Of a stretch of DNA of 17,016 bases, positions 20-17,016 are shown one piece after another; the first letter of the stretch is position 1; the number at the start of each line of letters is the position of its first letter. A program made the translations under genes and the position numbers. Location: assembly GCF_018420025.1 (NCBI RefSeq), contig NZ_JAEDAM010000018.1, positions 1-17,016 on the forward strand, written 5' to 3'. Source of the stretch: Candidatus Vampirococcus lugosii (GTDB lineage: Bacteria > Patescibacteriota > Gracilibacteria > Absconditabacterales > Absconditicoccaceae). Below the pieces are notes generated by a model that was not told the origin of the DNA, did no database searches, and saw nothing but the letters and a program-made list of their open reading frames with translations.

Positions 20-874
20 ATGAGAAAATTGTTGTTATTACTAGTACTTTGACTTATTCCGGTTTTTTCAGGTTGTGTAGAAGATATTCAAGATAATGAG
101 AATGATGAGAGTATTGAAGATATTATGGATGCTTATGAAGAATGACAAGATGAAGTAAGTACTGAAGAAGAATGACAAGATGAAGTAAGTACTGAAGAAG
201 AATGACAAGATGAAGTAAGTACTGAAGAAGAATGACAAGATGAAGTAAGTACTGAAGAAGAATGACAAGATGAAGTAAGTACTGAAGAAGAATGACAAAA
301 TGAAGTAAGTACTGAAGAAGAATGACAAGATGAAGTAAGTACTGAAGAGGAAAGACAAGATGAAGTAAGTACTGAAGAGGAATGACAGAATAATGATAAT
401 TCTGTTGTTAAAGAATGAAATACAGTAAGAGTAAATTATATTTGATCTTATACTGATACTGGAGAAGTTTTTGATACTAGTTTTGAAGATATTGCTAAAG
501 AAAATGATATGTATAATGAAGCTAGAACATATGGACCAATGGAATTTAAAGTATGAGCTGGTCAGATGATACCTTGATTTGATAGTGCAGTGGTTGGTAT
601 GGAATTAAATGAAACAAAAGAAATATCATTAACTCCAGATCAAGCTTATGGTGAATATGATGAATCTTTGATTGACAGTATTCCTAAAGCAGAATTTGAA
701 AATGCTGGTATAGAACCTGTAGAAGGTGAGACATTAAATTTTTGACCTAATATGCCACCATGATTAATAGTAGAAGTTAAGGATGAAGAAGAAATGGTAG
801 TTGTTGATTTTAATCATTTTCTTGCAGGTAAAAATTTAGATTTTGAAATAACTGTTGAAGGAATAGCTAATTAA
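20..874 (+). CDS. Exported lipoprotein FKBP-type peptidyl-prolyl cis-trans isomerase (SlyD-like, with IF insert), carrying an N-terminal acidic tandem-repeat linker (284 aa, code 25)
   Basis: The ORF is open from ATG 20 to TAA 872-874 when TGA=Gly, and an in-frame TAA at 8-10 lies upstream. The N-terminus MRKLLLLLVLGLIPVFSGC is a signal peptide plus lipobox. The C-terminal half reads VRVNYIGSYTDTGEVFDTS...GPMEFKVGAGQMIPGFDSAVVGM...VVVDFNHFLAGKNLDFEITVEGI. This matches the SlyD/FKBP signature (E. coli SlyD VVVDGNHMLAGQNLKFNVEVVAI). Confidence 0.85.
137..387 (+). repeat. 30-bp tandem repeat, about 8.4 copies (unit GAAGAATGACAAGATGAAGTAAGTACTGAA), coding for EEGQDEVSTE repeats inside the FKBP lipoprotein
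   Basis: Units run 137-166, 167-196 and so on at a period of 30. Units 1-5 and 7 are identical. Unit 6 has A at 299 (D to N). Unit 8 has GAGGAAAGA (G to R), and unit 9 is partial. Each intact unit contains one in-frame TGA. Confidence 0.95.
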
Positions 875-2713: not shown

Positions 2714-5164
2714 ATGTTTAATTCTTGAATTTTATGAATCAATTCTAGAAATTTACAATATATTAAAAAATTTAATCCAAAAAAAGTAACTCGTTTAGCA
2801 GATAATAAACAAAAAACGAAAAATTTTTTGAAGGAAAGATGAATACCAGTTCCTCAAACTTATTGAATAATTTCTAATCGTAGTCAGTTATATGATTTTG
2901 ATTTTGCTAAAATGCCTTCCAAAAATTTTGTTGTAAAACCTAATAAATGAAGTAAATGAAAATGAATTTATATTGTGAAATATATAGATGAATTAAAAAA
3001 TCAACTAAAAAATTCTTGAGAAAATATAGTAAGTAAAAAAAATAATTTTTTAAAATCATTTTTGTGATTTGATTTAAAAAGTAAATTTGATTATCATTAT
3101 AAAACATGATGAGAAATAATTAGTGATGATGTTTTAAGAAGATATTTAGTAGATATTTTGGATGGTAGATATTCTATAACTTTTGGACAAGATAAAATTT
3201 TGGTTGAAGAAAAATTAAATCCTTGAATAAATTTTAGAAAATATTGTAGACATTGATTGGCAGATATTAGAGTGATAGTTTTTAATCTAATTCCAGTTGC
3301 AGCAATGATTAGAGTTCCTACAGCAGAATCAGGTGGTAAAGCAAATATTGCTCAATGATGAGTAGGTTTGTGAGTAGAAGTTTGATCTTGAAAAGTTAAA
3401 TCAATGTATTTCAAAAAAGAAATTTTTACTAAATCTTTTCCATGAGAATATGCAGATATATATAATAAAAAAGTTCCTTTTTGGAATGATATACTTATGT
3501 ATAGTTCAGAAATTCAGTATTTTGTAAATCTTTGATATCTTGCTTTGGATTGGGTAGTTACTGATGATGGTCCTAAATTGTTGGAAATAAATGCAAGAGC
3601 ATGACTTGAAGTACAGAGTGCAAGTGTTTTAAAACTTAGAAATAGGTTGGAAAAAATTTCTGATATACATGTAAATGATCCTCAAAAATGAGTAGAAATT
3701 TCCAAAAGTATTTTTAATTCTTCCAAAAATAACTTGATTAATATGTCCAAAATATTATATCTTTCTCAAAAATGAAATTTAATTTTTGAATGAATACAAG
3801 ATAATTTTGTTAAAATTACTATTATGGTTGATATTAAAAAAGAAAAAAATTATATTTCAAAAAAGCTTTATAATAAAATTGATTCTTATAAATCATGAGA
3901 TGTAATTTTGGATATACCTGAAAATGAAATTAGATTAAAAAATTTGATATTTGAAGTAAATGATAAAATGGAAGAAAATGAAATTATTCTATGACAAGGT
4001 TCTATAAGTGAATTCTATATTAAACCTATACACAAAATAGAAACTGATATAAATATTGTAAGTTCTAGTAATATTGATGATGAAGAAATAGAAACTTTGC
4101 ACATTATAGATCAAAATATAGCAAAAATTTCAAGAAAATTAAATTTTACTAAAATATTAACTCCTACAAATTATTTAGATGAATTAGATAATTTTGTTAC
4201 TTGGAATTGAAATTATAACCCTAAATTTTCTTATAATTTTTTGGATGAAAATACTATTAATTCTTTGGAAACTGAATTATTATGAATGAAAGATAAGTAT
4301 TTTTCTAATAATTTCGGTCTCAAAAGTAATTTTTCTGAATTATTTAATGAAAAAATAGATGAATTACTTGATAGATTATATTTAATAAAAGCATATAAAT
4401 TACAGAAATATTGATATATTTTGGAATATAATGAAAAATTATTTGGTAATTTTGATAAAAAATTAGTTGAACAATCAAAAGAAAAAATATTTATGGAACC
4501 TGTACAAGATATGAATCTTTTATGAGAAAAATTAACTTTTTCTCAAGTTAAAAAAATTATTAAAAAATATCTTTATGATAAAGGTATTTCTTGAGTAAAA
4601 ATAAATACAAGTATGTGACTTAGTAGAATGGCAGTTATTAAATGAAAATATCCAGAAATAAGAATATCTTCTTATTCTTCTTTTAGAGAAAAAGAATTAT
4701 TGGCTACTTTGGCTCATGAAATTGATGTTCATTTAATTAGATTTTTAAATTGAAAAAAAACAGGTTGGGAAATATTAAAATCTTGAACATGATATTATAT
4801 AAAAGATGAAGAATGATTTGCAGTATATAATAGTTTTAATTATTTGCCAGAATGATATGAAAAAAAAGCTATATATCAAAAATATTATTTATCTTTTATA
4901 TCTTGATATTATTGATTTTCTAGATTAGTTGATATTATAAGATGAATTCAGTATAGAAGTTTGGAATGAGCTTTCAAAACTGCTTTAAGGTTAAAAAAAT
5001 GAATTCAAAATACTTGATTTGTTGATAGATGAGCTGTATATACAAAAGATAAAATATATTTAGATTGATATATGAAAGTGGATGAGCGAATAAAAAATTG
5101 ATGAAATTTTGATGAATTTAAATTTTGAAAAATTAAAATTGAAGATATTGATAAAGTTTTGTAA
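2714..5164 (+). CDS. Fusion protein (816 aa): N-terminal RimK-related ATP-grasp alpha-L-glutamate-ligase-like domain, unassigned middle region, C-terminal DUF1704 / MATCAP-like (tyrosine/phenylalanine carboxypeptidase, QEGLA family) metallopeptidase domain
   Basis: The ORF was verified open codon by codon. The N-terminus GILGINSRNLQYIKKFNPKKVTRLADNKQKTKNFLKERGIPVPQTY...FVVKPNKGSKGKGI...LADIRVIVFN...SGGKANIAQGGVGLGV...LALDWVVTDDGPKLLEINARAGLEVQ matches the TIGR02291-type ATP-grasp family (LGMNxRN start, KPxxGSxGxGI, ExN). The C-terminus ILTPTNYLDELDNF...LAHEIDVHLIRFLNG...KDEEGFAVYN...YTKDKIYLDGY carries an HExxxH motif plus the EG(L/F)A glutamate typical of DUF1704. Confidence 0.8.
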
Positions 5165-6177: not shown

Positions 6178-6996
6178 ATGAGTATAGAAAATATATGATG
6201 AAATAAAAAAATAGAAAGTAATTTGTTATATAATAATATGTATGTATGAATGTTAAGAAATTTGTTGGAGGAAATATTTGAAAATAATAAAATAAATAAA
6301 AACGAATGAATAAAAGATTTTCAGCAGAAGTTAAATAATAAATTAAGTTTAAAATGATATAAAAATATATCAGTAGATTGAAAATTTTGATGACAAAGTT
6401 TGGAAGCTGTAAGAATTTATCATAATAAATATATGTGATGAGAAAAATTAATTGATGAAAGACAAGTAAGTATTAGTATAATAAGACAAGTTTTTTATGA
6501 TTTAATTAATATTTCAAATGATGATGAAGAAATAACGGAAATATCAAGTAAAAAATTAAATAAAAAAATAGAAACTAATTTATGATATAATAGTGAAACT
6601 GTAAGAATAAATAGAGATAGAATAGAATCTTATATAGATAAATATATACCAAATAAATGAATAAAAGAATGAGTAAAATATTTTCAATCTAAAATGAACG
6701 AATATTTATGACAGATGGGGTATATAAAAATACTAGAAGATTGAAAATTTTGATGACAAAGTTTGGAAGCTATGAAAATATATTATAATAAATATATATG
6801 AGAAAATGATATAAGTATAAAAAACATAAATAATAATACTTTTTATAGAGTATTTGAAAGCTTGGAAGATAGTTTAGTTTTGGAGAGACAAAGAATTAAA
6901 GAAAAACAAGAATTAGTAATAAAAACTAAAGAAAAAAAAACGGGAAATTTGGGAAGAGATGTATGAGATGATTTTATTTCATCAAGAGATAATTAA
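6178..6996 (+). CDS. Protein with two peptidoglycan-binding (PG_binding_1-like) domains (272 aa)
   Basis: Two copies of the motif D-G-K-F-G-G-Q-S-L-E-A-(V/M)-(R/K)-I-Y are present (VDGKFGGQSLEAVRIYHNKY and EDGKFGGQSLEAMKIYYNKY). This corresponds to the DGxFGxxTxxAVxxFQ consensus of PG-binding domain 1. An in-frame TAA lies immediately upstream of the ATG. No obvious signal peptide is present. Confidence 0.6.
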
Positions 6997-7030
6997 GTAT
7001 TTATTAATTTAATTCTAATTTAATATACAA

Positions 7031-7222
7031 ATGTATAAATATATTTTAATTATTCTATTTATTATAATATTTAGTATTACAGTTTTGTATTTAATTTTTA
7101 GTTTTCAAAATAATTCTTGAAATAATTGAAAATTAGATTCTCAAGAATGATGAACATCATCACATAATATTGAACAAAATATTCCAGATAATATAACTTG
7201 ATCTAGAAAAGTTTCATGGTAA
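7031..7222 (+). CDS. Small single-pass membrane protein (63 aa), hypothetical
   Basis: The product is MYKYILIILFIIIFSITVLYLIFSF followed by a polar tail. It is co-directional with the preceding genes and is the last gene before a clear terminator. The short length limits confidence. Confidence 0.4.
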
Positions 7223-7284
7223 TTTTTAATTTAATATATTATTATATCTTTTTTAAAATTATTATTTTTTTGTTAGAATTATAA

Positions 7285-7311
7285 ATTCGTGTATTACACG
7301 AATATTTTTTT
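7285..7311 (+). terminator. Rho-independent terminator ending the dcd-to-small-membrane-protein gene string
   Basis: ATTCGTG (7285-7291) pairs with CACGAAT (7297-7303) around the loop TATTA. A T7 run follows at 7305-7311. This is one of the few GC-containing hairpins in the window. Confidence 0.7.
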
Positions 7312-7414
7312 GTTTTCTCATAAGTTTATAAAAATGAGATTATAAATAATATTATCAGTTTTAATTAGTAATAAATCTAATTAAAATATTATATCATTTT
7401 TTTATTAAATTGTA

Positions 7415-7453
7415 ATATACTAATTTGATTTTAAATCAAAAATATACTAATTT
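7415..7453. promoter_or_regulatory. Candidate operator: 12-bp direct repeat ATATACTAATTT x2 flanking the palindrome GATTT-T-AAATC
   Basis: The direct repeats lie at 7415-7426 and 7442-7453, and the palindrome at 7427-7437. The element sits in the roughly 300-bp intergenic region about 70 bp upstream of the TPR/ftsX start. The AT-rich background makes chance occurrence possible. Confidence 0.25.
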
Positions 7454-7519
7454 ATTTGCAAAAAATAATTTTATATTTATTATTATATTAACTTAATTTA
7501 AATAATAATTATTAAAAAA

Positions 7520-8122
7520 ATGTCTTATATAGAGTCTTCTTTTTTTGATGAGATACAGGATTTAAAAGCAAATTGAGAATATAATTTAGCACTAAAAAAA
7601 GTAAATTGAATTTTATGTGTTGATCCAGACAATAAAGATGCATTACTTGAAGTTGCTGATATTTTATATCTAAAATGAGATATTGAATCTGCATCCAAAC
7701 CAATTGATTATATACTTGTGAAAAAAAATACTGATCCTATGTGATTATATGTAAAATGAGTATTTGAAATGGAAAAAACAAATTGGTCTGTTGCAAAAAA
7801 ATATTTACAAGAAGCATTAATAAATTCGGAAGATGAAAATCCTGAAATTTTAAGATGTTATGGTTTATGTGAATATTGGAGATGAAATAAACAAAAATGA
7901 ATAGATTTTTTGGAATCTTCATTTAAATCATCAAGTTGACTTGATGCAGAAGTGATTTATAATTTAGTAGAAATATATTTATTGGAACATGAATATAATA
8001 ATGTAAATTATTATATACAATATTATAAAAATTATCGTAATAATTTGAATTCTTTTGAAAAAGATCTTAGTTTTTATGACGAAAAAATTGATTTATTTTT
8101 TGAATATTTAAGTGTAATTTAA
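7520..8122 (+). CDS. TPR-repeat protein (200 aa)
   Basis: The sequence is helical-repeat in character with TPR-like periodicity (GEYNLALKKVNGILCVDPDNKDALLEVADILYLKGDIESA; NWSVAKKYLQEALINSEDENPEILRCYGLCEYWRGNKQKG). The first ATG follows an in-frame TAA at 7499-7501. Confidence 0.6.
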
Positions 8123-8147
8123 ATATATAATAATAAAAATTTAAAAA

Positions 8148-9065
8148 ATGATAACTAAAAATTTCCTTTATTTAATTAAGGCATCTTTTTTTCAATTTAT
8201 ATGAATAGCTATTCTTATTAGTTTTTTACTGTTTTTCTTAAATACACTTTTTGCAACATCTTTTGGAATTGAAAATTTTGGTTCTGATGTGAAAAATAAA
8301 TTATGAGTTTATTTTTATATTCAAGATATTGATGAAAATAGTGATTATATTTCCTCAAAAATAGTTAATTTAAGTTCAGAACTTGAATCTGGTTGACTTA
8401 ATGTTGAATATTATTCAAAATCTGATGCATTAGGTTTAATTGAAAATAAAATACCAGAAATAATAGCTACTTTTGAAACTTATTGAATAGAGAATCCATT
8501 ACCTCCTACATTGTATGTACTTTTTGAAAATAATGAAGAATATGAATTTATGAAAAATACGGTTGCATCTTATGAAGAAATAATAATAAATATAGAAGAT
8601 GTTATTCAATGACAAAGTTTTGATGATCAAAAAGAAAGAATAGCAAATATTATTAATCTTACCAATTTCATTGTGATTTTTTCATATTTTTTAATATCAG
8701 TGCTTTTGATAATTATTATTACTTTTTTAATGTATGTTATTAAATCAAGTTTTTATACATTTTATAATCAAATTGAAGTAGCCAAACTTCTATGAGCCCA
8801 ATATTTTCAAATAAAATTTCCTTTTTTTATTAAAATGTTTTTTATTTTATTGTTTTGAAAAGTATTTATGATGTGATATATGTATTTTTTGGCAAATTAT
8901 TTGGATACATATTTGTATAATTTATTTACATTTTCTTTTATTGAATATATAAGTGCATATTATGAAGACATTATATATATAATATCTATACAATTTGTTA
9001 TAGTTTTGTTCTTTAGTATTTTGATTTCCAATTTTTTCTTAAATAGATTGATAAAGAAAATTTAA
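8148..9065 (+). CDS. ftsX: Cell-division permease-like protein FtsX (305 aa)
   Basis: The protein has an N-terminal TM segment (FIGIAILISFLLFFLNTLF). Its extracytoplasmic domain contains LGVYFYIQD...VEYYSKSDALGLIENK...ENPLPPTLYV, the FtsX NPLP motif. Three C-terminal TM segments follow. ORF-track entry 8880..9065 is its C-terminal fragment. Confidence 0.8.
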
Positions 9066-9616
9066 TTTGTATTCGCTTTTATCATATAATTTGCTTTAAT
9101 AATTTTTTCTTTTGAAAAGTTATTAATTTCTATTTTTGTACCAATATTATTTAATATAAAATTTATTGAATAATTTTTAATATCAATATCCATAGTAAAA
9201 TTTTCATCATAATTCATTTTTTCTTTTTCTCAAATATCTTCTATAAAAAAATATTCATATTTATCATTTTCCAAATTGTATTTCCAACATTTTTTTCTTT
9301 GTCATATAAAAATAAATATTTCTTTTGGTAATAATCATTTATTAAAAAATATTTTATATAAATCTATTTTGGAGATAGTAAAAAAATCTATTTCATAATT
9401 TTGCAATAAATTAATTGTATTTAATGATAATGAACAAGTTCTTAATCCGGTAAAAGATCAAGGTCAATTTATGATAAAACATTTTTTTATTTTTTTCTCT
9501 TTAAATACTTTTACAATTTCTTTTGTGAAAGTTCTTTCAATATCTTTATTTTCCAAATATATTTTTTTTTCTTCATTTTTGATATATATTTTACTATTTG
9601 ATATATTTATTAACAT
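9062..9616 (-). CDS. tsaB: tRNA N6-threonylcarbamoyladenosine (t6A) biosynthesis protein TsaB (YeaZ-like, short form, 184 aa)
   Basis: The minus-strand translation contains CFIINGPGSFTGLRTCSLSLNTINLL, the GPGSFTGLR signature of TsaB/YeaZ. Both glycines of GPG are TGA codons. Its stop codon overlaps the ftsX stop in a convergent 4-nt overlap. Confidence 0.75.
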
Positions 9617-9638
9617 ACTTATATTTTATTATGATAAA

Positions 9639-9983
9639 TTATCATGCAGAAATTGTTTGTACTATTCTTACAATACTATAACTAAATACTACTAACAAAA
9701 GTCATATAATTGAATATTTAAGTCAACTTTTACCTTTTTCAGCCAAACTTTCATTACCTGCTGAACTTACTAACATAAATCCAGAAATTACAAATGAAAT
9801 AGTAACTACTACTCATACAAACATAGTTGCTCACAAAAATATATCTTGCACAAAATTCGATACATTAGCATTCTCTGAATTTCTTATTCACAATACACCA
9901 TAAGTTTGCATTCAACATTGTCAATTTGTCAAACAATCAGCATCCGCTTCTATTCAACTAGTTAATAATATTTTATCTTCCAT
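9639..9983 (-). CDS. Small two-TM membrane protein resembling CPR 'type IV secretion system pilin' (TrbC/VirB2-like) family (114 aa)
   Basis: The C-terminal 70 aa read VQDIFLGATMFVGVVVTISFVISGFMLVSSAGNESLAEKGKSGLKYSIIGLLLVVFSYSIVRIVQTISAG. This follows the TM1 - G(F/I)xxxxSxG(D/N) - K-rich loop - IIGLxxVxxxYxIV pattern of PF18895-type pilins. No N-terminal signal peptide is seen. Confidence 0.45.
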
Positions 9984-10072
9984 TAATATTAATTTTTAAT
10001 TTTATTAAAAATAATTATTTATATAATAATAATTTATTTAAATTTTTCAAGACTGTATTATTAATTTTTATA

Positions 10073-12934
10073 TTATTTACTAGTATGTTTCCAAACTCAA
10101 TTCCAATTATCTGGAGTATTTTTTAATAAAATTTCACATCTTTCAATAAATATTTCGCAAGATTTATCATTTTTAATTTGTTTAGCATTTTTAAAATTTG
10201 ATAAAGCATTATCAAAATCTCATTTGATATATAATTCTAATCAAGTTTCAAAATAAAATATAAAATTATTTAATTCTTCTTTTTCTGTACTTGAAATAAG
10301 AGAATTAAATTTAGGAAATATTTCATATAATATTACAGATTTTTCTTTTCACTTAACTTGTATAATATCCAATTTTCTATAAATAAAATCAGATTTATTT
10401 TTTATATTATCAATTAATTCTCATGAAGCACAAATATTTGTTCCATAAAATTTATTTATTGATTCTAATCTAGCAGCAAGATTTACATTATCTCATATAA
10501 TAGTATAATTAAGTTTATATTTATCAGATCATAAATCTCAAATTACTGCTTCTCCATAATGCAATCATATTCTAGTATTAAGATTAATATCTACATTAAT
10601 TTGTTCTTTTACTAAAGCATTTATTTCTTTGATACTAATTATATTTAAAACAGCAGATTTAACTGCTAAATATGATTTATCATCATTTTCCCAAAAAGCC
10701 ATTACTGCATCTCATATATATTTATCTATAAATCATTTATTTATAGAAATATTCTCACTCATTTTTTCCAAATATATATTCAAAAAAGCCATATTTTGCT
10801 CTGGATTAAGTTTTTCTGAAATATTAGTAAATCATTCTATATCCGAAAAATACATAGAAATTTTACTTTTTTTTACTTTTTTTTCTCAAACTTTACTATA
10901 TCAATCACCAGATTCAGAAACATTTTTTCAAACATATAATCAAAATAATTTTTTGAAATTATTTTTGATAAAATTAATTTCTGTAATATAATACATAGAA
11001 GTGAAAGATAATTGAATAAATATTACAGATTTTTCTTTTCACTTAACTTGTATAATATCCAATTTTCTATAAATAAAATCAGATTTATTTTTTATATTAT
11101 CAATTAATTCTCATGAAGCACAAATATTTGTTCCATAAAATTTATTTATTGATTCTAATCTAGCAGCAAGATTTACATTATCTCATATAATAGTATAATT
11201 AAGTTTATATTTATCAGATCATAAATCTCAAATTACTGCTTCTCCATAATGCAATCATATTCTAGTATTAAGATTAATATCTACATTAATTTGTTCTTTT
11301 ACTAAAGCATTTATTTCTTTGATACTAATTATATTTAAAACAGCAGATTTAACTGCTAAATATGATTTATCATCATTTTCCCAAAAAGCCATTACTGCAT
11401 CTCATATATATTTATCTATAAATCATTTATTTATAGAAATATTCTCACTCATTTTTTCCAAATATATATTCAAAAAAGCCATATTTTGCTCTGGATTAAG
11501 TTTTTCTGAAATATTAGTAAATCATTCTATATCCGAAAAATACATAGAAATTTTACTTTTTTTTACTTTTTTTTCTCAAACTTTACTATATCAATCACCA
11601 GATTCAGAAACATTTTTTCAAACATATAATCAAAATAATTTTTTGAAATTATTTTTGATAAAATTAATTTCTGTAATATAATACATAGAAGTGAAAGATA
11701 ATTGAATAAATATTACAAAATATATAGATCATAAAGGTAAAAATATAGAAAATCAATTATTATAAAATCATAATATAGAAAAAATAATTGTTAAAATAAA
11801 AAAAAGTATTATTTCAGATATCATTAAGAAAAATATAAATTTTTGAGATCAATTAAATTTAAATACAAAAAATATTAAAGTATTAATAAGTAATATAAAA
11901 AACACAATTATTTGTATTTCTTTTGAATTAAATATATAGATAAAATCTTTATTTAAAAATGATAAAATTTGATTTGAGTGAAACACAACTCCTGCTATTT
12001 GTCATATTATACTAGGTTTTATATCTTGCAAAGCTGGATCAACTGCTCATATAATAACTATTTTATCTTTAAAATATTCTGATAAATTTTCTTTATTATG
12101 ATACACATCATACAACGATAAATAATTAAAATTATTATGATTAAGTTCATAAATTGGAGTAAACAGAAAATCTTCTCATTTCATATTCACTTTTGGAATA
12201 TTAATATTTCATATAGAATAAAAATCATTTGTAGATTTTATTTCATTTTTTACAGCTTCTCATTGAGATAAAATAGAATTTAATTTATTATATTCATAAT
12301 TTTGATAAATTTTTGCAGGAAATGAATCCAGATAAGAATCATTATTCTTTTCAAATTTCCTTGAATAAATTCATAAATCATAACTTTTAAATATTTTACT
12401 ATGAACATGTCATATATCGGCTCAATTTGATAATAAAGAATCATCAGGTTTTACAAATTCTCATGAAGAATCATTATATGTAGCACCCAAAATAATTTTA
12501 TCAGATAAATTTTCTATTAATTCTTCATCATATGAACTATAAATTTCAGTAAGCATTTTAGATCTTTCATCTTCTCCAGAAAATTTATATTTTTTTTCAA
12601 ATAAAACATCTACTCATAATACATATGGTTCATAATAAAGAATATTTTCAATAGCTTTGGCATAATATCATCTATGCAATCATTGAAATGAAATATTTTC
12701 TTTATTGAAAAATTCTTGATCTATTCAAACAATAGTTATTTTATTTTTATTTTCAAAAAAAGAATTATTTATATCAGATATAACAGTATTTCTAATTGAA
12801 ATCAATCAAGAATATATGTTAATATTTATAGTATCCAAAAAAGCTCTTCAGATAAAAAATATAGAAAATATAAATATAAAAATCTGTGATATATAAAATC
12901 AATATTTTCTATTAATTTTTTTTAAATTAAACAT
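10073..12934 (-). CDS. CHASE2 sensor-domain class III adenylate cyclase with a duplicated catalytic domain and TPR-like C-terminal tail (953 aa as assembled)
   Basis: The ORF was verified open codon by codon. It begins with an N-terminal TM segment. CHASE2 motifs follow (KITIVGIDQEFF...RGYYAKAIENI...VLGVDVLFEKK; KIVIIGAVDPALQDIKPSIIGQIAGVVFHSNQI), then three TM segments. The cyclase homology domain occurs twice: ISMYFSDIEGFTNISEKL, DKYIGDAVMAFW, RIGLHYGEAVIGDLGS, YTIIGDNVNLAARLES, VKGKEKSV. The tail reads LYEIF...GDFDNALSNFKNA...ERCEILLKNTPDNWNGVWKHTSK. Both metal-binding Asp residues, the Lys, and the Asn/Arg are present. Confidence 0.88.
10329..11717. repeat. Perfect tandem duplication, unit 690 bp (2 copies plus a 9-bp third-boundary microhomology AATATTACA)
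   Basis: By line-by-line comparison, 10329-11027 is identical to 11019-11717 at an offset of 690 (230 codons). AATATTACA occurs at 10329, 11019 and 11709. The flanks diverge immediately outside (10328 T vs 11018 A; 11028 G vs 11718 A). The identical ORF-track entries 10629..10991 and 11319..11681 are antisense by-products of this duplication. Confidence 0.95.
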
Positions 12935-12968
12935 TTTAATTTTTTATTTTAAATTTAAATTAAATAAT

Positions 12969-14309
12969 TTAATAATCATTATATTTGATAATATCAAATA
13001 TTTTATTAAGATCTATATTTCATTTTATAAAATCTTCTATATCAGAAATATTAATATTTTCCCCTAGATCTAATGCTTTATTATATTTATTTATTACATA
13101 ACTTTTTGCAATTTCCATATTATCTTGAGAAAGTAAATCTAATAAATTTAATTTAATTTTATTAAAATTTTCATTAACAGGAACTATTATCGCATCATCC
13201 AAATATTTCATATATCATTCAATTTCAGAATTTCATACTATTGCATTATATTTTTGTAAATTTTTATAATTATTTTCATATTCTTCATCAAAATATTTCA
13301 TTAAAAATAATTTAGTAGATGAAATTGAAGCAAGAATTCATTTCATTTCCAAAGTTCATGAATAATTATTTTTCACATAATTTATTATTTTATTTTTATA
13401 ATTATTTATTATATCAGAATCTTTTTGAAAAAATCTATTTATTTTTTTATAAGTTTCTTGTCATTTAATTTCTATAAACTTATTTATATCTATATTTTCA
13501 ATAGAATTCTTAATAATTTGTAATCATTCTTTTTTATTAATCAAAAATTTTTCTCATTCATTATTTACAAATTCTATCAAATGATTAAAACTAAAAACAG
13601 TGCTAGTTCAAGATTGCAAATCGTGTTCTACATATCAAGATGTTCATCTTATTACCAAAGTTCAATTTGAAGTATTAATATTAAATCAATCATCAGATAA
13701 AATAGTTCTAACTAAACTAAACCATATTTTTCAATTTTCTATATTTATACTTGTTTTTGAATTTAATAAATTTTTATTTTCTTTTATTAAATCTTGAAAT
13801 TTAATAGTAGTTTGAGGAAATATTCTTATGATAGTACCATCTCGGAGATTTATAACTACATCAGATTCTATATCTTTTGTAAGACTTGCAAATGTTATTA
13901 TATAATCTTCTTTTATATCTATATTTCAAATATTTTCATCAAATAAATTATATGTTTTTATTCTTTCTCAAGAACTTTTTATTATAATTCTAGCATTATT
14001 TTTTTCCAAAATTGATAAATCATCATTAATATTAAAATTAATATAATTTGATTGATTTGCATAAAAACTACTAACATCAACCTCTTCATCGTATACAGGA
14101 ATTATTGCAAATGTCAAAGCTACAAAATTAATTATTACTATAAATACAGACATAATAAATGCATATGTTGCTTTTATATGAGACAAAAGATATACAATAA
14201 TTCAAGATATTCATAAAAATCATAAGAATATATTTCATATTCATAAAAAAAATTTCAAAAACAACAAAAAAAATATAAAAGTTCAAAACATATATAAATA
14301 CTTATTCAT
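12969..14309 (-). CDS. Membrane-anchored FecR-domain protein (446 aa), likely partner of the downstream CHASE2 cyclase
   Basis: The ORF was verified open. The N-terminal hydrophobic region contains two TM-like segments. The central region GKIWFSLVRTILSDDGFNINTSNGTLVIRGTSGYVEHD matches the FecR-domain core (f.V.Tp.a.lgVRGT.f.v). The gene ends 35 nt upstream of the cyclase start. An alternative start is the Met at 14291. Confidence 0.6.
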
Positions 14310-14319
14310 TATAATTTAA

Positions 14320-14571
14320 TTATTTTAATAAATAAACTCATTCTCAAATTATTCATTTTGAAATATTGACAACTTTTTCTATATCATCACATCAATTTAT
14401 TATTAATATTTTTTCTTCATCTTTTTGTATTTCTCATTTACTGTTTTTAGTAAAAGATTTAACATAGTTTATTCTTTTTATGTTTTTTACTATATTTTGT
14501 TTCAATAACAAATTTATAAATCTTTTTATTTCTCTTGGTTTATTTGGACAATAAATAATATAATCTCACAT
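14320..14571 (-). CDS. Hypothetical small protein (83 aa), first gene of the minus-strand FecR/cyclase string
   Basis: The ORF is open under code 25: MGDYIIYCPNKPREIKRFINLLLKQNIV...ILIINGCDDIEKVVNISKGIIGEGVYLLK. Its stop lies 10 nt before the FecR-like start. I recognise no family. Confidence 0.4.
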
Positions 14572-14753
14572 TACAAAATAATAATATATAAAAAAATTAT
14601 TAATACAATAATATATTTTTAATTTATTTTTGCAAGAAAATAAATATATTATGTATGATAAATTTTTTTTAAGAAAATTTTAATTCTTCTATAATATATA
14701 AATAAATTTAGCTCATTTTTTGATTAATATTACAGAAAAAAATCAATTTTTAC

Positions 14754-14783
14754 TTGAATTTTATTTTTATTTTCTTATATATA
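14754..14783 (+). promoter_or_regulatory. Candidate sigma70-type promoter for tRNA-Cys
   Basis: TTGAAT (14754-14759) is followed by a 16-18 nt spacer and TATATA (14776-14781 or 14778-14783). This is 7-9 nt upstream of the mature tRNA 5' end. Such hexamers are frequent by chance in DNA this AT-rich. Confidence 0.3.
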
Positions 14784-14790
14784 GTAAAGT

Positions 14791-14864
14791 GGCACTGTGG
14801 CAGAGTGGTCTATTGCACGGGCCTGCAAAGCCTTGGCTCACCGGTTCGAATCCGGTCGGTGCCT
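14791..14864 (+). tRNA. tRNA-Cys (anticodon GCA), 74 nt including discriminator U73, no encoded CCA
   Basis: A manual cloverleaf fits. The acceptor GGCACTG pairs with CGGTGCC (one G-U pair). The D arm is GCAG-AGTGGTCTA-TTGC. The anticodon arm is CGGGC-CTGCAAA-GCCTT. The variable loop is GGCTC and the T arm is ACCGG-TTCGAAT-CCGGT. Discriminator U fits Cys identity, and a T-run follows. This is the only GC-rich island in the window. Confidence 0.88.
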
Positions 14865-14896
14865 TTTTTTTAAATTTGAAATCAAAAAATTTTAAA

Positions 14897-14927
14897 AAAT
14901 AGTCTTAATTTGACTATTTATTTTTTT
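14897..14927. terminator. Hairpin terminator candidate, possibly bidirectional
   Basis: AAATAGTC (14897-14904) pairs with GACTATTT (14912-14919) around a 7-nt loop. It is flanked by an upstream A-run and a downstream T7 run (14921-14927). It lies between tRNA-Cys (+) and the 3' end of dus (-). Confidence 0.4.
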
Positions 14928-15030
14928 ATTACAATAATTTAATATTCATTTTTTATGTTTTTTTCTTTCATAAATTCTATCTAATATTTCTAATACTAAT
15001 TTTACATTTTATATACTAGTTTCTTTTAAA

Positions 15031-16062
15031 TTATAATATATTATTGAAATAATTATTTATTTCATTTTTTACACTGATAAAATCATTATATTTTATAATA
15101 TTAATTTTTAAATCTTTTGATTTATTTAATCATTTGATATAAGAAAATAGATGTTTTCTAAATTCTACAGGACTTCTGTATTTATCTTTTGTATTTAATC
15201 AAATATTTATATATTTTTCTTTATCATTTATATTAAATTCTTGACAAATATTATTTTTTTCATCCCAAGTATATTTATTAAAAACTTCAATAGCAAAAGA
15301 TAATTCTAAATGTTCAATTATAGTCTCTTTTAATTCATTTAAATCAGGTTTTGATAGGGGAGTCAATATCCAAGGATTTCAAATACTAGCTTGTCATATC
15401 ATTGCTCAATCTAGATTTTTGCATTTTGTAATTCAATCTTCATAAGAAATTATTCATCAATTTCAAATAATTTTGCAATTTTTATTTACAATTTTTTTTG
15501 CTTGATTTATAAAGTCTCGATCAACATTTCATGAATGTCATTGTTTAAATGTTCTTCAATGAATTCATATTAAATGACAATATTTTGATGCTTCTTTTAT
15601 AAACTCTAATTGTTCTTGTATATCTTCTTTTTTTATTCATAATCTAGTTTTGATACTAAAAGGAGTAGAAATAGATTCAGATATTTCTTTTATTGTTTGT
15701 AAAGTTTCTTTTTTATTTTTTAACATTTCAACTCATCATCAACAAGCCATAATTTTGGGTGAAGGACAACCAATATTTAACTCAATTGCATTAAAATTAT
15801 ATTTATCATTTAATTCTTTTGCTGTAAAAATTAAATTTTTTTTGTTTCATCCAAAAATTTGTACAGTTATATTTTTTTCTAAATTGCTTTTTATTATATG
15901 ATGAAAAACTCATTTTGGATTATGAAAATATCAATCTGCACTCATAAATTCTGTACATAATAATAATTCATCTTTTGTATTGTGTTTATTAAAAATTTTT
16001 TGACTGATAGTTCTATATGCACAGTCTGTTATTCAATCCATAGGAGCAAGAGCTATATACAT
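15031..16062 (-). CDS. dus: tRNA-dihydrouridine synthase (343 aa)
   Basis: The ORF was verified open. MYIALAPMDGITDCAYR..., ELNIGCPSPKIMACGGG, PFSIKTRLG, IHGRT and IIGNGGI...DGAMIGQASIGNPW are the canonical Dus family motifs (LAPMxxxTD, NxGCPxxK, KxR, HGRT, GNGDI-like). Confidence 0.88.
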
Positions 16063-16249
16063 TTTTATATATTAATTATGATAAATTTATTTATAAGCAA
16101 ATATAATAAAAATATTTTATAAATCAACTTTTTAAATTCAAAAAATATAAATAAAAATTATTTTTTTAAACTTTCATCTTGATTTTTTTGTATACATTAA
16201 TTTAAGTTCAAATTTGTTAATCATATAATTAATAATATTGTTTTTTTTA

Positions 16250-16966
16250 TTAAATTTCATTTTTCCAATAATCAACCCATAACAAAGAATCTATATGCAA
16301 TGGAGCTATTTTAATTTTTTTTGATATATCATCAAAATATTTTATTATTTCGCTTTCTTTATAATTTTTATTTCAAGTATTTATTTCATATATTTTTTTA
16401 ATTCTACTATCTAGAGGTATACAAATATCAAAAGGAAATCTTTCTATTTTGTCAAAAACTATTCTACATGAATAAGCAAACATTTTAATACTAAAAACTA
16501 TTGTTTTTGCAGTCTTTTTTTGTTTCATACAATAAGCAAGTTTTGTATTTAAACTAGTCATATTTTGATAATAATTTATTAAGGAATTTAAATTATCAAC
16601 TTCTTCAAAAAATTTATCTATTTTTTTTAATCTTTTTATTTTCATATTTATCAATCTACGGTTATTTTTACTGTTTATCAAAAAAGTTTTGTACAATTCT
16701 ATATTTTTCAAAAGTTTATCAAAATTTTGGTAAAGAAATTCAGCAAACTCTTGCCATCGTTTTTCTCAAGTTCAACTCAATTGATAAGAGATCAAAGAAT
16801 TATAAATAATTATTTTTATGAAAAAAAATTTATCATTATCAGAAACATTTTTGTATTCATTTATTTTTATCCAAGATTTTTTTATATTAATATATTGTAA
16901 ATCCTTTTTCTCTTCCAAATCAAGTATATAATTTATATTATAATTTTCCAAATATTTTTGCAACAT
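16250..16966 (-). CDS. Archaeal-type 8-oxoguanine DNA glycosylase / N-glycosylase-DNA lyase (AGOG family, 238 aa)
   Basis: Reading through two TGA codons joins ORF-track entries 16772..16966 and 16373..16711 into one frame. YNSLISYQLSGTGEKRWQEF, KKTAKTIVFSIKMFAYSCR...RFPFDICIPLDSRI and IAPLHIDSLLW match my recollection of Pyrobaculum AGOG (NALISYRLTGKGEEHWEYF; QKTLVFTIKILNYAY...LPFDIPIPVDYRV; IPPLHLDTLLW). Confidence 0.8.
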
Positions 16967-17016
16967 AATTAAAAATATGTAATTTATAAAAAATATTCTT
17001 ATGTACTCACAATAAT

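What the first reader, a model, noticed from the sequence alone, without database searches (positions are those of the whole stretch)
10329..11717. Base-perfect 690-bp in-frame tandem duplication gives a CHASE2 adenylate cyclase two identical catalytic domains
Positions 10329-11027 and 11019-11717 are identical at every base I compared, with an offset of 690 bp (exactly 230 codons). The 9-mer AATATTACA marks all three boundaries, the footprint expected from slippage or unequal exchange between microhomologies. The event lies inside the minus-strand cyclase ORF and preserves frame. The predicted protein is therefore CHASE2 - TMs - [tail of last TM + linker + cyclase homology domain] x2 - TPR-like tail. 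At the junction, ...VKGKEKSVI is followed by FIQLSFTSMYY... instead of LYEIF. Class III cyclases are obligate dimers with active sites at the dimer interface, so a tandem pair could form an intramolecular dimer. This would be a snapshot of the step thought to have produced C1-C2 type cyclases, before any divergence. Zero mismatches imply a very recent event, a copy-number polymorphism in the population, or an assembly artefact.
Basis: seen in the sequence. Interest (0 to 1): 0.8.

Follow-up and report, generated by a model that had tools for sequence, protein, structure and literature searches.

The report
Perfect cyclase-domain duplication, probably amplification artefact
The deposited contig of the predatory bacterium Vampirococcus lugosii really does contain a perfect 690-bp in-frame repeat that gives a sensor cyclase two catalytic domains. 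However, a sister sequencing library carries the one-copy gene, and the DNA had been whole-genome amplified, so the repeat is more likely a laboratory artefact (or at best a rare variant) than a settled feature of the organism.

Summary
**Observation:** confirmed. Window 10329-11027 equals 11019-11717 (699 nt, 0 mismatches, offset 690). A 9-nt AATATTACA sits at all three boundaries.

**Gene:** with TGA read as Gly (code 25), the repeat lies in frame in a 953-aa CHASE2 class III cyclase. This is NCBI MBS8121834.1 of Candidatus Vampirococcus lugosii; the window is that whole 17,016-bp contig.

**Provenance:** the genome came from MDA/MALBAC-amplified DNA of about 10 cell consortia per library, sequenced as 2x125-nt reads.

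**Independent k=31 assemblies:**
- Run SRR13241708 crosses the locus with one copy, giving the predicted 723-aa protein.
- The SRR13241709 contig stops exactly 30 nt (k-1) into the repeat. I take this to mean that run holds junction reads.

**Relatives:** all 33 homologues have one catalytic domain.

**Perfect identity:** it says nothing about age, because a 690-nt repeat collapses to one graph edge with these reads.

**Verdict:**
- About 0.6: an in-vitro direct chimera from one amplification reaction.
- About 0.3: a real duplication in one strain or a few cells.
- Reads are needed to decide.

Interest is low.

The parts
10073..12934 (-). ORF of the CHASE2 class III nucleotide cyclase as deposited. 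It has 953 codons plus a stop, read with code 25 (TGA = Gly), and equals NCBI MBS8121834.1 / WP_213348749.1.
11888..12871 (-). CHASE2 sensor domain (residues 22-349). It is preceded by an N-terminal hydrophobic helix (about residues 11-36).
   Evidence: Pfam PF05226, E 1.2e-21; hydropathy
11690..11926 (-). Three hydrophobic helices after CHASE2 (residues about 337-415). The duplicated unit begins inside the last one, at residue 407.
   Evidence: hydropathy scan; AF2 helices 337-358, 364-391 and 401-435
11028..11717 (-). Repeat unit 1 (gene-proximal, residues 407-636). It holds the tail of the last TM helix, the linker, and catalytic domain 1 up to ...KEKS.
10338..11027 (-). Repeat unit 2 (residues 637-866), base-for-base identical to unit 1.
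11709..11717 (.). 9-nt microhomology AATATTACA (TGTAATATT on the gene strand) at the upstream boundary. Logan contig SRR13241709_54 ends at 11688, exactly 30 nt (k-1) from 11717.
11019..11027 (.). The same 9-mer at the internal copy1/copy2 junction. This is the only novel sequence the duplication creates.
10329..10337 (.). The same 9-mer at the downstream boundary.
11018..11563 (-). Cyclase homology domain 1 (residues 458-639). Catalytic set: D468, K508, D512, T581, N588, R623. Its last beta-strand reads SVIFIQL instead of SVILYEI.
   Evidence: Pfam PF00211; invariant columns in A1
10328..10873 (-). Cyclase homology domain 2 (residues 688-869) with the same catalytic residues at +230. It keeps the native last strand SVILYEI.
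10076..10327 (-). C-terminal TPR-like tail (residues 870-953), conserved across the subfamily (D923 nearly invariant).
   Evidence: alignment A1; TPR hits on the equivalent tail of L038
12969..14309 (-). FecR-domain membrane protein (446 aa) ending 34 nt upstream of the cyclase start (stop at 12969-12971, cyclase ATG at 12934). It is a conserved partner gene.
   Evidence: Pfam PF04773; the same order (85-aa ORF, FecR, cyclase) in relatives L005/L006
14320..14571 (-). Small 83-aa ORF upstream of the FecR gene. An 85-aa ORF holds the same position in the relatives' loci; similarity between them was not tested.
   Evidence: gene calls on L001 and on L005/L006

Best explanation
The two-copy structure is most likely not the organism's normal gene. 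In this reading the real gene is the 723-aa CHASE2 cyclase with one catalytic domain.

During multiple displacement amplification of one small pool of cells (the library behind run SRR13241709), a displaced 3' end re-annealed 690 nt upstream on the same strand, at the 9-nt sequence TGTAATATT, and was extended. That made molecules with a head-to-tail junction, a 'direct chimera'. The junction reads put a loop into the assembly graph. The assembler walked the loop once and wrote the 690-nt unit twice, necessarily without a single mismatch. The result was deposited and annotated as a 953-aa protein.

Shown: the repeat; the one-copy allele in a sister library; a graph branch exactly at the repeat boundary in the other library; the amplification history.

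Inferred: that the branch is the same junction; that the junction arose in vitro rather than in a cell.
For: 1. **Amplified template.** The source paper (PMC8080830) reports three pools of about 10 consortia, whole-genome amplified (V7 and V8 by MDA, V12 by MALBAC). They were sequenced as 2x125 nt and assembled with SPAdes 3.6.0 at default settings.
2. **One copy in a sister library.** Logan contig SRR13241708_19 (L001, 15,315 bp) is collinear with the window. It is 100% identical over 6742-11027 and has only 2 true mismatches (16414, 16440) over 11016-17016. It carries one unit and the 723-aa protein P0001.
3. **What that contig means.** Logan contigs are k=31 graphs in which every 31-mer is unique (PMC12424806). 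A straight-through contig therefore means junction k-mers were absent or minor in that run.
4. **A branch in the other run.** SRR13241709_54 (L002) ends at window 11688. Its last 30 nt start exactly with TGTAATATT, which is the signature of a graph branch at the repeat boundary.
5. **Control for that logic.** L001 ends at 6742, exactly 30 nt inside a genuine 34-nt exact repeat at 6738-6771.
6. **Junction anatomy fits MDA chimeras.** It is direct, 690 nt apart, with a 9-nt overlap. Published figures: more than 90% of proximal junctions have 2-21 nt of complementarity (PMC1855051). The distance peak is 250-300 nt and ranges to 5 kb; the overlap peak is 6 nt (PMC4595205). Direct chimeras are about 8.6% of single-end chimeras within 5 kb (PMC6515389).
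7. **The two libraries are otherwise nearly identical.** There are no differences over 7041-9756 or 11688-16065. Differences cluster only near 16066-17016 and beyond. There has been little divergence time in which a real duplication could become fixed.
8. **Relatives.** All 33 homologues, including four at 48-55% identity, have one catalytic domain.
9. **Run SRR13241709 is fragmented here.** It has further contig ends at 9756 and 7041, with no repeat in the window to explain them.
Against: - Direct, proximal chimeras are the minority class of MDA chimera: 11 of 475 in PMC1855051 and about 8.6% in PMC6515389. Only about half of those would look like a duplication.
- The junction survived graph cleaning in two different assemblers, so its depth was not trivial. 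That is harder to reach for a chimera when tens of template genomes are present.
- The event is in frame (1 in 3 by chance). It contains the whole catalytic domain (roughly 1 in 10 for a 690-nt segment of this gene).
- The two libraries do carry distinguishable haplotypes (2 SNPs, an 18-bp indel, a T-run, and a strongly divergent region just past the window end). A strain-specific real event is therefore possible.
- I could not see reads or depths.
Confidence: 0.6

Rival explanations
1. A real microhomology-mediated tandem duplication exists in some Vampirococcus cells, namely the strain or few founder cells that dominate library SRR13241709. Replication slippage or illegitimate exchange between the two TGTAATATT 9-mers duplicated residues 407-636. 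This gave a CHASE2 cyclase with two identical, catalytically complete domains. The other library carries the ancestral one-copy allele, so the locus is polymorphic.
For: - There is a branch exactly at the boundary in run SRR13241709, and the junction is kept in the deposited assembly.
- The two libraries carry different haplotypes. Each Logan contig crosses the divergent region unbroken, so each library is dominated by one haplotype.
- The event is in frame and spans the whole domain.
- The catalytic residues D, K, D, T, N and R are intact in both copies.
- AF2 folds both copies as cyclase domains.
- Nature does fix such events: a Thiomargarita protein has [CHD + TPR tail] x2 with halves 63% identical.
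- Duplication-like direct chimeras are a rare class of MDA artefact.
Against: - Support comes from only one amplified library; the sister library shows one copy.
- The libraries are otherwise identical over about 7 kb compared, so the time available for fixation is very short.
- No homologue has the tandem form.
- A perfect 690-nt tandem repeat would be unstable if homologous recombination is active.
- There is no read-level evidence.
Confidence: 0.3
2. The junction comes from a small 690-nt circle, or from an array with more than two copies, rather than from a simple two-copy chromosome. For example, a rare circle could be excised between the two 9-mers, or popped out of a duplication, and then hugely over-amplified by phi29 rolling-circle synthesis. 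Alternatively the chromosome could hold three or more units. In either case the assembler's '2 copies' is just the minimal walk through a loop.
For: - The graph-loop logic holds: copy number cannot be read from a collapsed repeat with 125-nt reads.
- It is established knowledge that phi29 preferentially amplifies small circles.
- The circle's junction sequence would be identical to the tandem junction.
Against: - There is no direct evidence for a circle.
- It requires a rare in-vivo excision at a 9-nt homology.
- It adds a step to either of the two simpler explanations.
Confidence: 0.05
3. A purely computational misassembly: SPAdes wrote the unit twice with no junction-spanning reads at all.
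For: The deposited contig appears to come from a graph holding two haplotypes. It is a mosaic of run-708 and run-709 alleles, and it ends exactly where the two haplotypes diverge.
Against: - The junction 31-mers are new sequence that a de Bruijn assembler cannot invent across a 9-nt overlap.
- An independent assembler (Logan, k=31) breaks its SRR13241709 contig exactly k-1 nt into the repeat. That requires a second incoming path in the reads.
Confidence: 0.03

Closest known systems
Single-domain CHASE2 class III cyclases of Absconditabacteria/Gracilibacteria (P0001-P0011; NCBI names them 'adenylate/guanylate cyclase domain-containing protein')
   Same: They share the domain order: N-terminal TM helix, CHASE2, three TM helices, short linker, one CHD, TPR-like tail. 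In the one close relative whose locus was examined (P0003; L005/L006) the neighbours are also the same: a small ORF, then a FecR-domain protein, then the cyclase. P0001 is the same gene from a sister library, 723 aa, identical to the window apart from TGA translated as Trp.
   Different: The deposited window protein carries a second, identical CHD with linker (residues 637-866). None of the 33 relatives does.
Tandem-CHD cyclases: mammalian membrane adenylyl cyclases (C1-C2) and soluble adenylyl cyclase ADCY10
   Same: They have two cyclase homology domains in one chain. Foldseek's best full-length matches to the AF2 model are AC9 soluble domains and human sAC, aligned over about 500 columns. 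The 48-residue inter-domain linker is in the range of sAC's (my recollection: about 68 residues).
   Different: In those enzymes C1 and C2 have diverged and are complementary, giving one active site and one degenerate site. Here the copies are identical and each holds a full catalytic set. The modelled domain arrangement does not superpose (rmsd about 20 A, pTM 0.43), so an intramolecular dimer is not shown.
Thiomargarita sp. MAG protein, REC-[CHD-TPR tail]x2 (L038 1535-3709)
   Same: It is a bacterial class III cyclase of the same CHD subfamily with an internal duplication of the catalytic domain plus tail.
   Different: Its copies have diverged to 63% identity. The duplicated unit includes the TPR tail. 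The sensor is a receiver domain, not CHASE2. It comes from an unamplified metagenome bin.
Pseudomonas aeruginosa CyaB catalytic domain (PDB 3R5G) and cyanobacterial CyaC/Cya2 (1WC0, 2W01), homodimeric class III cyclases
   Same: CyaB (3R5G) is the closest solved sequence (E 2.6e-22). The fold matches it and 1WC0/2W01 at TM 0.8-0.87 and rmsd 1.5-3 A. The metal Asp pair and the Lys/Thr, Asn and Arg residues are conserved.
   Different: Those are single domains that dimerise between chains.
Direct chimeras of multiple displacement amplification
   Same: Two segments of the same strand are joined at a short shared sequence. They lie within a few hundred to a few thousand nt of each other. The junction is specific to one amplification reaction.
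   Different: It is usually a low-depth, one-off junction. Here it was abundant enough to survive graph cleaning in two assemblers. It is also in frame and domain-sized, which a random chimera need not be.

Membership tests
Class III nucleotidyl cyclase (cyclase homology domain, Pfam PF00211) | Significant match to the CHD profile | tested here: met
   PF00211 E 6.8e-41, 140 bits against a cut-off of 21.9, two stretches. The closest PDB chain is 3R5G. Fold TM is 0.8-0.87 to 2W01, 3R5G and 1WC0.
Class III nucleotidyl cyclase (cyclase homology domain, Pfam PF00211) | Catalytic set: two metal-binding Asp, a substrate Lys plus Asp/Thr, and transition-state Asn and Arg | tested here: met
   D468, D512, K508, T581 and N588 are invariant, and R623 is at least 90% conserved, in a 23-sequence alignment. 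The same residues occur at +230 in copy 2. Assignment of roles follows established class III literature (my knowledge).
Class III nucleotidyl cyclase (cyclase homology domain, Pfam PF00211) | Activity as a dimer with active sites at the interface | not testable with these tools
   Only a monomer model was possible.
CHASE2 sensor proteins (Pfam PF05226) | CHASE2 profile match, flanked by one N-terminal and three C-terminal TM helices | tested here: met
   PF05226 E 1.2e-21, 77.9 bits against a cut-off of 26.3, residues 22-349. Hydrophobic segments lie at 11-36 and 337-415.
Tandem-CHD pseudo-heterodimeric cyclases (tmAC / sAC type) | Two CHDs in one polypeptide | tested here: inconclusive
   This is true of the deposited sequence. 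The sister library encodes only one CHD, and the second copy may be an amplification artefact.
Tandem-CHD pseudo-heterodimeric cyclases (tmAC / sAC type) | Diverged, complementary C1 and C2 with one catalytic and one degenerate site | tested here: not met
   The copies are identical at every base. Both carry the full catalytic set.
Tandem-CHD pseudo-heterodimeric cyclases (tmAC / sAC type) | Intramolecular head-to-tail CHD dimer | tested here: inconclusive
   AF2 gave pTM 0.43. sAC and AC9 align over about 500 columns but at rmsd 20-22 A. The alignment gave no depth for copy 2.
MDA direct chimera (in-vitro artefact) | Template DNA was amplified by phi29 MDA | tested here: met
   PMC8080830 methods: REPLI-g MDA for V7 and V8, MALBAC for V12. 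Which run corresponds to which library is not stated.
MDA direct chimera (in-vitro artefact) | Same-strand joining of nearby segments (under 5 kb) at a short shared sequence (2-21 nt) | tested here: met
   The segments are 690 nt apart, in direct orientation, with a 9-nt overlap.
MDA direct chimera (in-vitro artefact) | Junction confined to one amplification reaction | tested here: met
   There is a branch at the boundary in SRR13241709 and a straight-through one-copy contig in SRR13241708. This is inferred from contig structure, not from reads. No third run was found.
MDA direct chimera (in-vitro artefact) | Junction depth below flank depth, and junction absent from unamplified DNA | not testable with these tools
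   No reads, depths or unitig abundances are available here.
In-vivo microhomology-mediated tandem duplication | Head-to-tail direct repeat with the microhomology at both ends and at the junction | tested here: met
In-vivo microhomology-mediated tandem duplication | Junction present in independent DNA preparations or unamplified DNA | tested here: not met
   Only one of the two retrievable libraries shows it. Exact-match scans of GTDB genomes and JGI metagenomes found nothing.

The most novel reading that the evidence does not exclude
The duplication is real and segregating in the Vampirococcus lugosii bloom. Some cells carry a CHASE2 cyclase whose complete catalytic domain was duplicated in frame between two 9-nt microhomologies, while others keep the one-copy gene. 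This would be a natural, zero-divergence example of the first step towards C1-C2 type tandem cyclases. Both alleles would be available for direct comparison of activity and of intramolecular versus intermolecular dimerisation.
Probability: 0.3. Interest if true: 0.5.

Novelty: not a real feature. Interest (0 to 1): 0.22.

Why it matters
If the duplication is an artefact, a public RefSeq/UniProt protein (WP_213348749.1, 953 aa) misrepresents the gene. The true product would be the 723-aa form. The case is also a reminder that perfect tandem repeats in assemblies of amplified DNA should not be read as biology, and that 'zero mismatches' says nothing in a short-read graph assembly.

If it is real, it would be a rare observation of domain duplication before any divergence, in a class of enzymes whose eukaryotic members are thought to have arisen exactly that way. 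It would occur in a reduced-genome predatory CPR bacterium with very few signalling proteins. The question can be settled cheaply from public reads.

Tried and rejected
- **Table 11 gene calls** are useless here (5 ORFs). I re-translated with codes 4 and 25.
I got round this through homologue searches and cluster listings.
- **Retrieving the run-709 contigs** for the unit alone and for the right flank failed. I tried exact look-up of the predicted partial products. Partial proteins are not in the collection, and even the known 415-aa partial product of L002 is absent. The 953-aa Trp version is not in Logan either (explained).
- **The antisense 120-aa table-11 ORF** inside the unit gave nothing on look-up.
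- **Exact-match scans** of GTDB genomes with the boundary 30-mer and of JGI metagenomes with a 35-mer from the unit gave 0 hits. The source genome is evidently not among the held representatives.
- **The pattern-based scan of genomes** missed code-25 relatives, because Gly is often TGA there. It returned only distant CHASE2 and other cyclases. It was still useful for finding L038.
- **Long inverted repeats** in the window, the commonest MDA chimera signature, were not found.
- **The AF2 model** cannot say whether the two domains pair within one chain.
- **A pure assembler artefact** was considered and rejected (see rivals).
Full report
Window 10329-11027 and 11019-11717 are identical at all 699 positions, with an offset of 690. 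Identity ends abruptly on both sides. The 9-mer AATATTACA (TGTAATATT on the gene strand) sits at 10329-10337, 11019-11027 and 11709-11717. An exact 30-mer census finds nothing comparable elsewhere. Apart from a 30-bp tandem array at 137-387, the longest other exact repeat is 34 nt. This cannot be chance.

**2. Genetic code and identity of the window.** Under the standard bacterial code the 17-kb window has only five ORFs of at least 80 aa. With TGA as a sense codon it is densely coding. TGA falls on conserved glycines, for example GFGSTG of dUTPase and LPGIGPKTA of RuvA, which indicates code 25. G+C content is 20%. The cyclase ORF runs from 12934 to 10073 on the minus strand and encodes 953 aa. 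An exact look-up shows this is NCBI MBS8121834.1 / WP_213348749.1 of Candidatus Vampirococcus lugosii, on a contig of exactly 17,016 bp. The window is therefore that whole GenBank contig.

**3. Anatomy.**
- Pfam finds CHASE2 (residues 22-349) and two Guanylate_cyc stretches.
- Hydrophobic helices lie at about 11-36 and 337-415.
- The unit covers residues 407-636 and is repeated as 637-866. It starts inside the last TM helix and contains the linker and the catalytic domain up to ...KEKS.
- The microhomology encodes Val-Ile. As a result, copy 1 ends its last beta-strand as SVIFIQL instead of SVILYEI.
- In a 23-sequence alignment D468, K508, D512, T581 and N588 are invariant and R623 is nearly so. 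The same residues recur at +230.
- The closest solved relative is the homodimeric P. aeruginosa CyaB domain, 3R5G.
- An 85-residue TPR-like tail follows.
- Upstream lie a FecR-domain protein and a small ORF. In the locus of a 55%-identical relative (L005/L006) a FecR-domain gene and an 85-aa ORF occupy the same positions.

**4. Relatives.** All 33 homologues found have a single catalytic domain. The four closest outside this species (48-55% identity) are 718-742 aa. I scanned the longer ones (791-955 aa), and they have one CHD.

**5. Provenance.** The genome paper (PMC8080830) describes three pools of about 10 host-epibiont consortia.
- Each pool was whole-genome amplified: V7 and V8 by REPLI-g MDA, V12 by MALBAC.
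- They were sequenced as 2x125 nt and assembled separately with SPAdes 3.6.0 at default settings.
- The contigs were binned, and the bin was 'assembled independently'.
- The paper never mentions the cyclase.

**6. Independent assemblies of the raw runs.** It is identical to the window apart from TGA translated as Trp.
- **Run SRR13241708.** P0001 lies on Logan contig SRR13241708_19 (L001, 15,315 bp). This contig matches window 6742-11027 at 100%. It matches 11016-17016 with only two real mismatches. It carries one unit.
- **Run SRR13241709.** I found a second Logan contig, SRR13241709_54 (L002), through the FecR neighbour. It ends at window 11688. Its last 30 nt begin exactly with TGTAATATT.
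- **Why the end position matters.** Logan contigs come from a k=31 graph in which every 31-mer is unique and k-mers seen once are dropped (PMC12424806). Such a contig can never show two copies. It ends k-1 = 30 nt into a sequence that has two incoming paths.
- **Control.** L001 itself ends at 6742, exactly 30 nt inside the genuine 34-nt repeat at 6738-6771.
- **Inference.** Reads of run SRR13241709 contain a second path into the start of the unit. The simplest candidate is the copy1/copy2 junction seen in the deposit. In run SRR13241708 that path is absent or too rare to survive graph cleaning. I also infer that both runs belong to the Vampirococcus project, from the 99.6-100% identity and the adjacent accession numbers.

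**7. What the deposited contig is.** The window shares the two SNP alleles (16414, 16440) with run 709. It shares the state of a T-run (16066) and of an 18-bp indel (about 16256) with run 708. It ends at 17016, one base from where the two runs' contigs begin to diverge strongly. About 14% of positions differ (mismatches plus gap positions) over the next 500 nt. A contig that is an allele mosaic and stops at a haplotype fork most likely came from a graph holding both haplotypes.

In such a graph, with 125-nt reads, a 690-nt repeat is a single edge with a back-link. The assembler's minimal walk writes it twice. The copies are therefore identical by construction. The true copy number (1, 2, more, or a mixture) is not recorded, and 'zero mismatches' says nothing about age.

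**8. Real or made in the tube?** Both readings predict a junction confined to one library.

For an MDA chimera:
- The template was amplified.
- The junction is a same-strand join of points 690 nt apart at a 9-nt shared sequence. This falls within the published ranges: 2-21 nt of complementarity in more than 90% of proximal junctions; distances peaking at 250-300 nt and reaching 5 kb; overlap peak of 6 nt.
- Run 709 is fragmented at this locus.
- The two libraries are otherwise identical over about 7 kb. They differ only around a variable AGOG / restriction-type region, so there was little time for a real duplication to rise to dominance.

For a real event:
- Direct proximal chimeras are the minority class: 11 of 475, or about 8.6% of single-end chimeras within 5 kb.
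- The junction was abundant enough to survive cleaning in two assemblers.
- The event is in frame and takes in the whole domain.
- The libraries do carry distinguishable haplotypes.

I put these at about 0.6 (chimera) and 0.3 (real). Small weights go to an over-amplified circle or a higher copy number, and to a purely computational error. The branch in run 709 argues against the last.

**9. How it would work if real.** Each copy has the full catalytic set, and AF2 folds both as cyclase domains. pLDDT is about 85-90 for copy 1 and 70-85 for copy 2; mean pLDDT is 69 and pTM 0.43. Single-domain structures superpose at rmsd 1.5-3 A. The tandem enzymes sAC and AC9 align over about 500 columns but at rmsd about 20 A. 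The model therefore neither supports nor excludes an intramolecular head-to-tail pair joined by the 48-residue linker.

Unlike tmAC and sAC, both sites would be complete. A natural, diverged parallel exists in a Thiomargarita protein with REC-[CHD-TPR]x2, whose halves are 63% identical. Duplication of the catalytic domain is therefore a known route in bacteria.

**10. Verdict.** The evolutionary reading is not supported. The best-supported account is an amplification chimera carried into the deposit. A rare real variant is a live alternative that public reads could settle in minutes. Interest is low unless the reads show the junction at full depth or in independent libraries.

Noticed in passing
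window 137-387 (+ strand gene 20-874): A 30-bp unit is repeated 8.4 times (97% matches). It encodes an acidic EEEGQDEVST repeat between the lipoprotein signal peptide and the FKBP domain of a 284-aa protein. The 251-nt array is longer than the 125-nt reads and sits near the contig start, so its copy number is also uncertain.
   Followed up: partly
whole window: TGA is a sense codon (Gly, code 25) and G+C is 20%. Standard-code tools see almost no genes. Logan/Prodigal translated these contigs with TGA = Trp, so database copies of the proteins carry Trp at Gly positions.
   Followed up: yes
window 16066, about 16256, 16414, 16440; L001 1-5730 versus L002 1-4794: The two sequencing runs carry different haplotypes, so the bloom described as clonal is not strictly clonal.
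- There are 2 nonsynonymous SNPs in the AGOG gene, a T-run length difference, and an 18-bp imperfect tandem insertion with a 9-nt direct repeat.
- Just beyond the window end, about 14% of positions differ (mismatches plus gap positions) in the 3' part of a 1087-aa gene.
- A RhuM-family gene is present only in run 708.
   Followed up: partly
window 17016 (contig end): The GenBank contig ends one base from where the run-708 and run-709 contigs start to diverge. Its alleles are also a mosaic of the two runs. This suggests the deposit came from a graph holding both haplotypes.
   Followed up: partly
window 7041 and 9756 (ends of L004, run SRR13241709): Run 709's contig breaks at two further positions. 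Run 708 and the deposit are continuous there, and the window holds no exact repeat of 30 nt or more at either site. The cause is unknown: a coverage gap, another chimeric branch, or a repeat elsewhere.
   Followed up: no
window 6178-6996 (+): A 272-aa protein has an old internal duplication: units 363 nt apart, 86% identical over 81 nt, with a 34-nt exact core. Pfam reported a peptidoglycan-binding-type match only over the first unit (residues about 51-93). This repeat is diverged, unlike the perfect cyclase repeat. It explains where Logan contig L001 ends.
   Followed up: partly
window 2714-5164 (+): An 816-aa fusion of a 'sugar-transfer associated' ATP-grasp domain (PF14397) with a MATCAP-type (PF08014) carboxypeptidase-like domain.
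   Followed up: no
window 9639-9983 (-): A 114-aa membrane protein matches the type IV secretion system pilin family (PF18895). It lies directly downstream of the cyclase. UniProt calls it DUF4190.
   Followed up: no
L038 1535-3709 (Thiomargarita sp. MAG DYNN01000126.1): A natural bacterial protein with a receiver domain followed by two [cyclase domain + TPR tail] modules that are 63% identical. It is a diverged counterpart of the structure in the finding.
   Followed up: partly
L063 51-2063 and 2282-4510 (Planctomycetota MAG): Two adjacent paralogous sensor-cyclase genes sit in tandem. This is gene-level rather than domain-level duplication of the same CHD subfamily.
   Followed up: no
window 14791-14864 (+): tRNA-Cys (GCA). 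It is the only RNA gene found. It lies in the 0.7-kb gap between the Dus gene and the small ORF upstream of the FecR gene.
   Followed up: yes
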